Source of the DNA: a virus
Taxonomy: Duplodnaviria > Heunggongvirae > Uroviricota > Caudoviricetes
Length of the DNA: 5,553 nucleotides
Direction: 5' to 3' (one strand)
IMG/VR virus record: IMGVR_UViG_2541047097_000025
Shown: positions 2,224 to 2,964 of the stretch, in pieces
Position numbering within the stretch: the stretch's first letter is position 1
Layout: every line of letters starts with the position of its first letter
Made by a program: the position numbers and the translations under genes
The notes under the pieces: generated by a model
What the model was told of the DNA's origin: nothing
Databases searched by the model: none
What the model saw: only the letters and a program-made list of their open reading frames with translations

Positions 2224-2244
2224 AAGTTGCCTCTGCATGTGTAA

Positions 2245-2266
2245 GAAAAAACCGCCATCAGGCGGC
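2245..2266 (-). terminator. Putative rho-independent terminator between the zinc-ribbon gene and xis
   Basis: On the minus strand the sequence reads GCCGCC-TGAT-GGCGG followed by TTTTTT: an all-GC 5-6 bp stem, a 4-nt loop and a T-tract (plus-strand 2245-2266). Confidence 0.5.
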
Positions 2267-2308
2267 TTGGTGTTCTTTCAGTTCTTCAATTCGAATATTG
2301 GTTACGTC

Positions 2309-2608
2309 TTATTCGATGCGCACTCCTGGTATTTCGCCTTTTGATATTGCTAAGTCATAAATTTGCGCGGCACTATACCCATCTCGCATCCATGAATCTA
2401 AGGCGCGAACAGCCTCGCTACGCTTTTTATCTTCTCTCTCATTTTTGATATCAACGAGGACATCAACGCAATTAAGGCAAATGTGGATTTTGTCTTTACA
2501 TTCGATCATGGCGGCTTTGCCATGATTTCCGCCACACAGTGAGCATAAATCTTCAGGGTCTGGCTGGTATTTCTGTAACGTTAGAGGGTTGAATGTTGAA
2601 CAGGCCAT
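2309..2608 (-). CDS. Small zinc-ribbon protein (CxxC-x18-CxxC) with helical C-terminal region; possible DNA-binding regulator
   Basis: ORF with cysteine pairs CSLC and CLNC separated by 18 residues. Of three in-frame ATGs (2620, 2614, 2608), only 2608 has an SD (GGAG, 6 nt spacing). The gene is flanked by terminator-like hairpins on both sides. Confidence 0.6.
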   Translation of the reverse strand: MACSTFNPLTLQKYQPDPEDLCSLCGGNHGKAAMIECKDKIHICLNCVDVLVDIKNEREDKKRSEAVRALDSWMRDGYSAAQIYDLAISKGEIPGVRIE

Positions 2609-2620
2609 AATCATCTCCAT

Positions 2621-2645
2621 AAAACAAAACTCGCCGTAGCGAGTT
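2621..2645 (-). terminator. Putative rho-independent terminator between the ASCH-like gene and the zinc-ribbon gene
   Basis: On the minus strand the sequence reads AACTCGC-TACG-GCGAGTT followed by TTGTTTT (7 bp stem, 4-nt loop, T-tract), ending directly before the zinc-ribbon gene start region. Confidence 0.4.
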
Positions 2646-2679
2646 CAGATAAAAGAAATCCCCGCGAGTGCGAGGATTG

Positions 2680-2964
2680 TTATTCATTGCCGATATTCAC
2701 CTTTATCGCGAACACCTTTACCGGTTTATCACCGAAGTGCGGATGTGTGATTGTCTTGATTTCATATCCGTCATACGGAACATCAATTCTTCGGCTGGAA
2801 TCGTCGCGCTTCGGATATCCCTTTGTGATAATCAGGCGGTCATACTCGCGGAACATAATTCGCTTATTCCAGTAGTCATTAAACAGGCGATACTCTTCCG
2901 TTTTCTCTCCGCGAATCATGGCATCGAAGTATTCACCTTTAACGGCAAGTTGCAGGTTAGCCAC
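2680..2964 (-). CDS. ASCH/DUF3850-like domain protein
   Basis: The translation (KGEYFDAMIRGEKTEEYRLFNDYW...EYDRLIITKGYP) resembles phage ASCH-like proteins. The preferred start is GTG 2962-2964, with a strong SD (AGGAGG) 6 nt upstream, and it overlaps the stop of the upstream DUF551 gene. The longer ORF-track start at 3045 would overlap that gene by about 90 nt. Confidence 0.62.
   Translation of the reverse strand: MANLQLAVKGEYFDAMIRGEKTEEYRLFNDYWNKRIMFREYDRLIITKGYPKRDDSSRRIDVPYDGYEIKTITHPHFGDKPVKVFAIKVNIGNE

What the first reader, a model, noticed from the sequence alone, without database searches (positions are those of the whole stretch)
2238..2680. Zinc-ribbon gene insulated by terminators on both sides, directly upstream of xis-int
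The 99-aa CxxC-x18-CxxC protein is preceded by a hairpin plus TTGTTTT tract and followed by a GC-rich hairpin plus TTTTTT, both oriented for the minus strand. Every other gene junction in the operon is overlapping with no room for a terminator. This suggests that transcription from the upstream early operon reaches this gene and xis-int only under antitermination, as in the lambda pL/N logic, or that the gene is a separately regulated insert. A small zinc-ribbon protein next to xis could be a regulator of excision or of integrase expression.
Basis: partly seen in the sequence, partly recalled or inferred. Interest (0 to 1): 0.55.

Follow-up and report, generated by a model that had tools for sequence, protein, structure and literature searches.

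The report
Lambda-type terminator slot carrying ClpX-like gene
The hairpins around this small zinc-ribbon gene of Shiga-toxin phage 933W are the conserved leftward-operon terminators already annotated in phages 434 and P22, so the layout is ordinary, but the gene encodes an uncharacterised copy of the zinc finger of the host protein ClpX.

Summary
The window is the left end of Stx2 phage 933W/Sp5 integrated in wrbA, and the gene is 933W L0063. In detail: a 99-aa CxxC-x18-CxxC ORF lies between terminator-like hairpins on the minus strand.

None of this is specific to 933W. The same flanks occur in lambda at about 98-99% identity over the aligned flanks, and in 434 and P22. The 434 record names the distal upstream hairpin t-L4. 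It names a different hairpin, at the xis-proximal position that the window's downstream hairpin occupies, t'-I. P22 annotates the homologue of the downstream hairpin as a terminator.

These flanks bound a slot just upstream of xis whose cargo varies between phages: orf55, ORF114, the zinc-ribbon gene and others. In 933W a 152-bp deletion left the zinc-ribbon gene plus a 51-nt orf55 remnant.

N and nutL lie upstream in the same orientation, so the lambda pL/N reading is the best explanation. It is inferred from anatomy and homology and was not measured. I found no promoter for the gene and no evidence for a role in excision. The one new point is that the family profile matches the ClpX N-terminal zinc-binding domain (E = 2.3e-7). 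Interest is low to moderate.

The parts
2647..2678 (-). Terminator-like hairpin 1 with its U-rich tail. It is the homologue of the terminator annotated 't-L4' in phage 434.
   Evidence: -13.1 kcal/mol, z = -4.68; the 434 t-L4 feature covers the homologous hairpin; at least five different stem sequences occupy this position across phages, and nearly all fold; 85% of cells paired, against 56% or less when the partners are slid.
2617..2646 (-). Terminator-like hairpin 2 with the tail UGUUUUAUGG.
   Evidence: -11.9 kcal/mol, z = -4.93; the lambda homologue was predicted as t4-lambda by Bloch et al. 2014; the sequence hardly varies across 124 matches to the anchored pattern.
2614..2684 (-). Conserved 5' flank, a mosaic 'linker': both hairpins plus the SD. 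It is shared with lambda, 434, Salmonella P22-like phages and many prophages.
   Evidence: near-identical to lambda; query positions 17-87 match in records that lack the zinc-ribbon gene; some part of the flanks occurs in 2722 of 5426 complete E. coli genomes.
2606..2618 (-). Shine-Dalgarno GGAG (2615-2618) and start codon ATG (2606-2608) of the zinc-ribbon gene. The junction between the conserved flank and the cargo lies at the start codon.
   Evidence: Lambda orf55 uses the same SD with its own ATG one base further on.
2309..2608 (-). 933W L0063, 99 aa. It has a ClpX-type C4 zinc finger (about residues 20-57), a long helix (45-75) and a short C-terminal module ending GEIPGVRIE.
   Evidence: PHROG 3680, function unknown; ClpX zinc-finger homology; AF2 model, pLDDT 84; homologues in Enterobacter and Klebsiella at 46-64% identity; the four Cys are invariant across the wider family.
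2258..2308 (-). A 51-nt remnant of lambda-type orf55: its last 16 codons plus the stop, which lies in the loop of hairpin 3. It was left by a 152-bp deletion.
   Evidence: identical to lambda; relatives L009, L011 and L094 carry the zinc-ribbon gene, a 35-nt spacer and a complete orf55, with junction microhomology AGA. Donaldson 2021 (PMC8614690) notes 'a portion of orf55' in 933W.
2239..2268 (-). Terminator-like hairpin 3 with the tail UUUCUUACAC, directly in front of xis. It is the hairpin at the 3' end of orf55. It occupies the xis-proximal position where the 434 record annotates a different hairpin as t'-I. It could also act on the opposite strand.
   Evidence: -13.0 kcal/mol, z = -3.58, and a plus-strand hairpin is also listed; t5-lambda. 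P22 annotates the homologue as terminator of the antisense aI RNA; phage L annotates it as a terminator; at least seven different sequences follow the T-tract across phages.
1939..2238 (-). xis, a DUF1233-type excisionase. The likely start is the ATG at 2223, behind AGAGG.
   Evidence: PF06806, E = 1.2e-30..
576..1910 (-). int, a tyrosine integrase and the last gene of the leftward operon. It abuts attL and the wrbA remnant (1-579).

Best explanation
This is the 933W version of a conserved segment at the far end of the lambdoid leftward (pL) early operon.

Anatomy, in the direction of transcription: two tandem intrinsic terminators, of which the first is the one called t-L4 in phage 434; then a shared ribosome-binding site; then a slot for one or two small accessory genes; then a terminator embedded in the 3' end of orf55, lying directly in front of xis-int.

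In 933W the slot holds the zinc-ribbon gene L0063 plus a 51-nt orf55 stump.

Mechanism (inferred): RNA polymerase that starts at pL and is modified by N at nutL reads through all three hairpins, so L0063, Xis and Int are made early after induction or infection. Polymerase that is not modified stops there. This keeps xis-int silent in the lysogen and keeps stray transcription out.

The almost invariant flanks also act as patches of homology where lambdoid phages exchange cargo and int-xis modules. This explains why the flanks are far more widespread than any one cargo.

L0063 is a real, conserved small protein. Its N-terminal half is a homologue of the ClpX N-terminal zinc-binding domain. Its function is unknown.

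Shown: the anatomy, fold stability, homology to annotated terminators, cargo variability, and ClpX-finger homology. Inferred: termination, N-dependent read-through, and the recombination role.
For: Identity of the window: 100% identical to 933W, VT2-Sakai and related phages. Genes as in AF125520.

Hairpins: three minus-strand hairpins with U-tracts, -11.9 to -13.1 kcal/mol, z from -3.6 to -4.9, 0 of 200 shuffles as stable.

Flanks in lambda: near-identical, while the cargo differs. Bloch et al. 2014 predicted the lambda copies as t3, t4 and t5.

Annotation elsewhere: the 434 record M60848 labels the hairpin-1 homologue as terminator t-L4 and a hairpin in front of xis as t'-I. P22 and phage L annotate the hairpin-3 homologue as a terminator.

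Structure retained while sequence changes: hairpin 1 occurs with at least five different stems, and all but 3 of about 120 copies fold at -6 kcal/mol or better. 85% of cells are paired, against 56% or less for slid partners, and the covariation score exceeds 499 of 500 shuffles. In 434 the orf55 hairpin has decayed, and a different hairpin sits in front of xis.

No promoter: the promoter scan found no site upstream of the gene start, and the gap from hairpin 2 to the SD is too short for one.

N and nutL: annotated upstream and co-oriented in 933W.

Slot variability: at least eight alternative first genes behind the same hairpins and SD. A two-gene form and the 152-bp deletion explain 933W. At least seven different continuations follow the hairpin-3 T-tract. 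Flanks occur in 2722 of 5426 E. coli genomes, and the full cassette in 310.

Protein: the family profile hits ClpX ZBD structures 1OVX and 2DS5 at E = 2e-7 to 6e-7, and the seven best hits are all ClpX. Members P0043, P0047, P0048 and P0052 pass the Pfam threshold for PF06689.
Against: No transcript data were available, so termination efficiency and N-dependence are untested for 933W. I could not find published measurements for the lambda or 434 elements either. The names t-L4 and t'-I come from a GenBank record only.

Covariation is thin: only one base pair shows changes on both sides. Hairpins 2 and 3 are conserved as sequence, which recent exchange would also produce.

P22 assigns the hairpin-3 homologue to an antisense RNA on the other strand, so its main role may differ between phages.

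The window protein itself scores below the Pfam cut-off (15.7 against 27 bits). Fold searches did not single out ClpX.
Confidence: 0.72

Rival explanations
1. The hairpins matter mainly for something other than N-controlled attenuation. They could be homology patches for mosaic recombination, 3'-end stabilisers of processed mRNA, or, for hairpin 3, a stop for antisense or convergent transcription as annotated for the P22 aI RNA. On this view read-through by ordinary polymerase is substantial and N makes little difference here.
For: Hairpins 2 and 3 are conserved as sequence, with almost no compensatory change. Mosaic junctions lie exactly at the edges of the flanks. P22 annotates the hairpin-3 homologue as terminator of an antisense RNA. 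The plus-strand scan also lists this hairpin.
Against: All three have canonical stems followed by U-tracts in the direction of the operon. Hairpin 1 is replaced by unrelated hairpins at the same spot. In 434 a new hairpin sits in front of xis where the old one decayed. Both observations point to selection for a hairpin rather than for a particular sequence. No promoter-like site, with or without a CII box, that could drive an antisense RNA was found in the xis/int module or the slot of this window.
Confidence: 0.15
2. The gene is a 'moron': an autonomous unit with its own promoter and terminator, expressed from the prophage independently of the early operon.
For: It is a variable cargo flanked by conserved non-coding DNA and followed by a terminator. 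Only 310 of the 2722 E. coli genomes that match some part of the queried segment carry the full cassette.
Against: The promoter scan found no site upstream of the start. The gene uses the SD that lambda orf55 uses. Two terminators, not a promoter, lie directly upstream. In Enterobacter prophages the homologue follows the preceding gene after a 10-nt gap inside the operon.
Confidence: 0.04
3. The zinc-ribbon protein is a regulator of excision or integrase expression.
For: It is adjacent to xis in 933W. Diverged homologues (about 50% identity) in Enterobacter prophages also lie one small gene upstream of a different type of xis-int.
Against: The position is that of the whole accessory region. 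The same slot carries unrelated genes in front of lambda-type xis. The zinc-ribbon gene is found in front of the 933W xis, orf55 plus ORF114, orf55 plus an HTH Xis-like gene, and another ORF. There is no HTH or other DNA-binding signature. The finger is of the ClpX type, which in ClpX binds proteins (own knowledge).
Confidence: 0.08

Closest known systems
The t-L4 / ORF55 / t'-I segment of phage 434 (GenBank M60848) and its lambda counterpart (about 29.08-29.37 kb, between ea8.5 and xis), predicted as t3, t4 and t5 by Bloch et al. 2014 (PMC4195576)
   Same: The flanking DNA is the same: tandem hairpins plus SD on one side, and the orf55 3' end plus hairpin on the other. Both sit between the accessory 'ea' genes and xis, in the same orientation. 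The presumed N-suppressible terminator function is also shared.
   Different: The cargo differs: lambda has orf55 only, 434 has ORF55 plus ORF114, and 933W has L0063 plus an orf55 stump. The int-xis module that follows is unrelated (Rac-type Int and DUF1233 Xis), and no CII box for a pI-like promoter follows the T-tract.
Terminator of the antisense aI RNA of Salmonella phage P22 (NC_002371), between eaG and eaC
   Same: A 63-nt stretch that includes hairpin 3 is 98% identical.
   Different: In P22 it is assigned to the opposite strand, ending an RNA from a C1-activated promoter inside eaC. That promoter and eaC are absent from 933W.
ClpX N-terminal zinc-binding domain (Pfam PF06689; PDB 1OVX, 2DS5)
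   Same: The CxxC-x18-CxxC spacing and the surrounding motif (CSxCG ... hIC..Cv.l...I) match. The family profile matches ClpX chains at E = 2.3e-7, and in both proteins the finger is followed by a helix.
   Different: L0063 has no AAA+ module, so it is a stand-alone 99-aa protein with a different C-terminal module. The window protein is below the Pfam threshold. No function has been tested.
Lambda Ea8.5, a hybrid homeodomain/zinc-finger protein (PDB 2M7A) and the other zinc protein of the exo-xis region
   Same: It is a small zinc-binding accessory protein encoded just upstream of the same terminators in lambda.
   Different: No sequence similarity: neither the single sequence nor the family profile finds 2M7A. 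It lies upstream of t-L4, not inside the slot.
Morons of lambdoid phages (Juhala et al. 2000), as cited in Tree et al. 2014
   Same: Variable extra genes inserted between conserved genes and followed by a terminator.
   Different: A moron carries its own promoter. None is present here.

Membership tests
Intrinsic (Rho-independent) terminator | A stable G+C-rich stem-loop followed directly by a U-tract on the transcribed strand | tested here: met
   All three sites qualify: searches give -11.9 to -13.1 kcal/mol, z from -3.6 to -4.9, and tails with at least 5 U in 8 nt.
Intrinsic (Rho-independent) terminator | Transcript 3' ends map to the U-tract, and downstream expression is reduced | not testable with these tools
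   No RNA data were available. Term-seq data for strain Sakai exist (GEO accession named in PMC7547250) but could not be read.
Lambda/434 t-L4 / orf55 / t'-I segment | Sequence homology of both flanks, with the same position between the ea genes and xis | tested here: met
   (alignment with lambda). (about 98.6% identity to lambda and 92.9% to 434 over the flanks). (434 annotation).
Lambda/434 t-L4 / orf55 / t'-I segment | An intact orf55 between the terminators | tested here: not met
   Only the last 16 codons remain, at 2258-2308. Relatives keep the whole gene behind the zinc-ribbon gene.
N-antiterminated pL operon of lambdoid phages | N gene and nutL upstream, with all genes down to int co-oriented | tested here: met
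   The 933W annotation has N at 9065-9448 and nutL at 9614-9680, with an uninterrupted leftward gene string to int. These are annotations, and nutL is marked 'putative'.
N-antiterminated pL operon of lambdoid phages | Read-through of the terminators depends on N | not testable with these tools
   This needs RNA measurements or reporter assays with and without N.
ClpX-type C4 zinc finger (Pfam PF06689) | Four Cys as CxxC-x(18)-CxxC with the family motif | tested here: met
   C22, C25, C44 and C47 are invariant across 33 family members. The alignment to ClpX 1OVX and 2DS5 covers the four Cys of the finger.
ClpX-type C4 zinc finger (Pfam PF06689) | A score above the curated Pfam gathering threshold (27 bits) | tested here: not met
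   The window protein scores 15.7 bits, E = 0.014. 18 of 20 close relatives hit only below threshold. More distant members of the same family pass: P0047 43.3, P0048 31.7, P0052 29.5 and P0043 28.4 bits. The family profile matches ClpX at E = 2.3e-7. Homology is therefore supported through intermediate sequences.
ClpX (the ATPase itself) | An AAA+ module after the zinc finger | tested here: not met
   The protein is 99 aa, and NCBIfam ClpX models match only model positions about 5-56. It is not a ClpX orthologue.
Moron | Its own promoter upstream of the inserted gene | tested here: not met
   The sigma-70 scan finds no site upstream of the gene start, and only 14 nt separate the hairpin-2 stem from the SD. 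Promoters of other types are not excluded.
Lambda Ea8.5 family | Sequence similarity to Ea8.5 or its solved homologues | tested here: not met
   No Ea8.5 chain appears among PDB matches up to E = 10 for the single sequence or E = 1 for the profile.

The most novel reading that the evidence does not exclude
L0063 is a phage-made decoy or modulator of the host ClpX N-domain. As a free ClpX-type zinc finger produced early from pL, it would pair with the ClpX N-domain or compete with it. The competition would be for clients and adaptors that depend on that domain, for example the lambda-like O replication protein that 933W encodes, or SspB. This would retune ClpXP proteolysis during lytic growth.

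Its C-terminal module, which is shuffled onto other N-domains in related prophages, would supply a second binding partner.
Probability: 0.2. Interest if true: 0.6.

Novelty: new member of a known kind. Interest (0 to 1): 0.3.

Why it matters
The terminator arrangement adds nothing new to phage biology. It shows that the xis-proximal end of the 933W early operon is built like that of lambda, and that xis-int of this Shiga-toxin phage probably sees pL transcription only in the N-modified mode.

Three points are useful to record.
- The flanks bound a recombination-prone slot. Some part of them occurs in about half of all complete E. coli genomes.
- 933W carries a deletion derivative of a two-gene form of the slot.
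- L0063, which databases list as hypothetical, belongs to a small family of stand-alone ClpX-type zinc fingers. If it acts on ClpXP, it could affect phage replication and hence toxin output, and that can be tested directly.

Tried and rejected
Lambda 'tL3': I tried to find out whether the hairpins equal this classical terminator. The papers found only mention tL3 as a vector part, or use 'TL3' for other things, so the question stays open. A literature search for 'tL4' gave nothing relevant. A full-text search for the hairpin sequences found only Bloch et al. 2014.

Rfam: at E up to 5 there were only three sub-threshold chance-level matches, two of them over the hairpins (Leu leader, rsmX), about 30 bits below their cut-offs. 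There is no known RNA family here, and nothing resembling an HK022 put element.

sRNA reading: Tree et al. 2014 and a 2026 preprint on prophage sRNAs do not place an sRNA here. Sy et al. 2020 report Term-seq only for the tR' region, and no supplements are held.

CII-activated pI-like promoter: there is no TTGC-N6-TTGC in the window, and the one-mismatch hits are at chance level with none on the minus strand near xis.

Ea8.5 homology was my first guess from memory. The PDB searches do not support it.

PADLOC gave no hit. NCBIfam gave only the N-terminal part of the ClpX models. Pfam gave nothing for proteins that share the C-terminal module. A literature search for phage-encoded ClpX zinc-domain proteins found none.
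Full report
**What the window is.** The stretch 1900-3000 is 100% identical to Stx2 phage 933W (AF125520), VT2-Sakai and many other Stx phages. Window 1-579 is the remnant of the host gene wrbA, into which the prophage is inserted. All phage genes run on the minus strand. In window order they are int (576-1910), xis (1939-2238), L0063 (the zinc-ribbon gene), L0064 (an ASCH-domain protein), L0065 (EaA/DUF551), and so on up to an Ea22-like gene. In the complete phage this string continues upstream through exo, bet, gam, kil, cIII and ssb to N and a putative nutL. 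The window is therefore the far end of the leftward early (pL) operon.

**Checking the observation.** The ORF is real. With the ATG at 2608, six bases behind GGAG, it encodes 99 aa carrying C22-x2-C25-x18-C44-x2-C47.
- 2268-2249: -13.0 kcal/mol, z = -3.58, followed by U-rich sequence that ends 10 nt before the xis ATG.
- 2646-2627: -11.9 kcal/mol, z = -4.93, followed by UGUUUUAUGG.

None of 200 dinucleotide shuffles folds as well in either case. Two hairpins in tandem therefore fill the 71-nt gap upstream of the gene. The window-wide count of terminator-like sites is not above chance (12 against 7.3 +/- 3.0). The case rests on these particular sites, not on the count.

**The hairpins are old acquaintances.**
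- Bloch et al. [quoted passage not shown] Their t4-lambda and t5-lambda match window hairpins 2 and 3 almost base for base, and the visible end of t3-lambda matches hairpin 1.
- Aligning the window with lambda 29,039-29,419 shows two near-identical blocks. The first runs from just after the ea8.5 stop through both hairpins, the SD and 'ATGGAGATGAT'. The second is a 67-nt block comprising the last 16 codons of lambda orf55, whose stop codon lies in the hairpin loop, plus the T-tract. Between the blocks the sequences are unrelated: lambda has the body of orf55 and 933W has L0063.
- The phage 434 record M60848 annotates the homologue of hairpin 1 as terminator 't-L4'. It annotates a different hairpin directly in front of xis as "t'-I".
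- The P22 reference genome annotates the homologue of hairpin 3 as the terminator of an antisense 'aI RNA'. The phage L record annotates it as a terminator on the sense strand.

The elements are therefore named and annotated. I could not find published measurements of their activity in the papers available to me.

**Evidence that the hairpins are selected as hairpins.**
- A scan of IMG/VR, anchored on the sequence around hairpin 2, returned 124 matches. At the position of hairpin 1 at least five different stems occur, each followed by the same U-rich tract. Examples are AATCCTCGC/GCGGGGATT, ATCCTCG/CGAGGAT, AACCCGC/GCGGGTT, AACCTCG/CGAGGTT and AGCCCGC/GCGGGTT. All but three copies fold at -6 kcal/mol or better.
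- On an alignment of 18 variants, 85% of cells are paired, against 41-56% when the 3' partners are slid. The covariation score exceeds 499 of 500 shuffles. Only one pair changes on both sides, so this support is modest.
- In 434, ORF114 is inserted between ORF55 and xis. There the orf55 hairpin has picked up a mismatch, and a new, unrelated hairpin with a T-tract stands in front of xis.
- Hairpins 2 and 3 are conserved as sequence, which says less about structure.

**A slot with exchangeable cargo.** Behind the same tandem hairpins and SD, the first gene is one of at least eight alternatives:
- orf55, in most phages;
- the zinc-ribbon gene, in 11 of the 124 matches, counting the window and 933W;
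- ORF114-type genes;
- a 46-aa hydrophobic peptide;
- an 83-aa Xis-like protein;
- unrelated ORFs of 57, 124 and 182 aa.

After the T-tract of hairpin 3, at least seven different sequences follow. They include the lambda xis/pI region, ORF114 or eaC, and the 933W xis.

Some phages (L009, L011, L094, and GenBank LC744179) carry the zinc-ribbon gene, a 35-nt spacer with its own SD, and a complete orf55 before hairpin 3. 933W differs from these by a 152-bp deletion with three bases of microhomology at the junction. The deletion brought the zinc-ribbon gene up against the orf55 terminator.

The picture of 'a gene insulated on both sides' is therefore a by-product of two things. The slot as a whole is bounded by terminators, and 933W has lost most of the second gene.

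Some part of the queried flank-plus-cassette segment occurs in 2722 of 5426 complete E. coli genomes, at up to eight places per genome. The zinc-ribbon cassette occurs in 310. Mosaic junctions lie exactly at the edges of the flanks. This fits the old idea that conserved boundary sequences let lambdoid phages swap modules by homologous recombination. That role is an inference.

**How it most likely works.** There is no promoter-like site upstream of the gene start, and only 14 nt separate the stem of hairpin 2 from the SD. L0063, xis and int can therefore only be transcribed by polymerase that has passed two terminators, and three for xis-int. With N and nutL upstream, the straightforward reading is the lambda one. 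N-modified polymerase from pL reads through, and unmodified polymerase stops. I found no CII-type box (TTGC-N6-TTGC) near xis or int, so no lambda-like pI is visible for this int module. How Int is supplied for lysogenisation remains open. Termination and N-dependence are inferred, not shown. The P22 annotation is a reminder that hairpin 3 may also act on the other strand.

**The protein.**
- L0063 has no Pfam hit above threshold and belongs to PHROG 3680, of unknown function.
- It is conserved as a protein. Homologues at 46-64% identity occur in Enterobacter and Klebsiella prophages. A search of 1.84 billion representatives finds only 35 relatives. The four Cys are invariant across the wider family alignment of 33 sequences.
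- As a single sequence it weakly matches the ClpX N-terminal zinc-binding domain (PDB 2DS7 at E = 0.05; PF06689 at E = 0.014; ClpX NCBIfam models over their first ~50 positions).
- 18 of 20 close relatives give the same sub-threshold Pfam hit. More distant members of the family pass the curated threshold (P0047 43 bits, P0048 32, P0052 29.5, P0043 28). A profile of 33 members matches ClpX chains at E = 2.3e-7, and the seven best hits are all ClpX.
- The Cys spacing is the one I remember for E. coli ClpX (own knowledge).
- An AlphaFold model built with the deeper alignment has pLDDT 84. It shows a small zinc ribbon, a 30-residue helix and a short last helix. Fold searches are inconclusive for so small a domain.
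- The C-terminal ~50 residues (…DKKRDEA…IYDAIAAGKIPHIRID in relatives) also occur behind unrelated N-terminal domains. The protein is therefore two modules.

In short, it is a stand-alone ClpX-type zinc finger, not a ClpX. In ClpX this domain binds substrates and adaptors (own knowledge). An effect on ClpXP is therefore an attractive but untested idea.

**The suggested link to excision.** In its favour is adjacency, which diverged Enterobacter homologues keep: they lie one small gene upstream of a different xis-int. That position is simply where all accessory genes of this operon sit. The slot holds unrelated genes in front of the same xis. The zinc-ribbon gene is found in front of several different neighbours. 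The protein has no DNA-binding signature. I rate this reading low.

**Verdict.** It is wrong or unsupported on separate regulation and on an excision role. The terminator arrangement is a known feature of lambdoid phages. The only new element is the family assignment of L0063.

Noticed in passing
window 2258-2311; loci L009, L011, L094: 933W carries a 152-bp deletion relative to phages that have both the zinc-ribbon gene and a full orf55. The 16-codon orf55 stump lies in frame directly behind the TAA stop of the zinc-ribbon gene, so stop-codon read-through would add DVTNIRIEELKEHQAA.
   Followed up: partly
window 2309-2460 (C-terminal third of L0063); proteins P0057, P0061, P0063, P0065, P0066; L115: The C-terminal ~50 residues of the zinc-ribbon family recur as the C-terminus of proteins with unrelated N-terminal domains (for example '...WDGEGLPPVGC...'). 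This looks like a shuffled module. It has no Pfam match and no known function.
   Followed up: partly
window 4310-4639, minus strand: An ORF in the gap that the original 933W record leaves between L0068 and L0069 has strong PHROG matches (phrog_12350 at E = 5e-113; phrog_1380 for the last 62 aa) and contains CxxC pairs. It is probably one or two real small genes that the original annotation missed.
   Followed up: no
window 2680-3045, minus strand: L0064, called an ASCH domain-containing protein in other records, most likely starts at the GTG at 2961, six bases behind AGGAGG, and not at the annotated ATG at 3045. The PHROG match begins at residue 28, and this start removes the 89-nt overlap with L0065.
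   Followed up: partly
window 1900-2310: No CII-type box (TTGC-N6-TTGC) and no promoter-like site precede xis or int on the minus strand, unlike lambda, where the pI CII box follows the homologous T-tract directly. How this integrase is expressed for lysogenisation is not evident from the sequence.
   Followed up: partly
L003 (P22) 2538-3060: P22 uses the homologue of hairpin 3 as the annotated terminator of an antisense 'aI RNA' started from a C1-activated promoter inside eaC. The same conserved hairpin may therefore serve opposite strands in different phages.
   Followed up: no
L126 and L128 (Enterobacter prophages next to proA/proB): Diverged homologues of the zinc-ribbon gene are also followed directly by a related hairpin (ACCGCCGCAATGGCGGTTTTTTATTGGAG) that overlaps the stop codon. 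Upstream there is no terminator at the gene itself. In L126 the nearest one lies upstream of the preceding 66-aa gene.
   Followed up: partly
window 1-579: The wrbA reading frame continues across attL into phage DNA, giving a 192-aa ORF with a phage-derived N-terminus ([12 protein letters not shown]...). Whether this hybrid WrbA is made was not examined.
   Followed up: no
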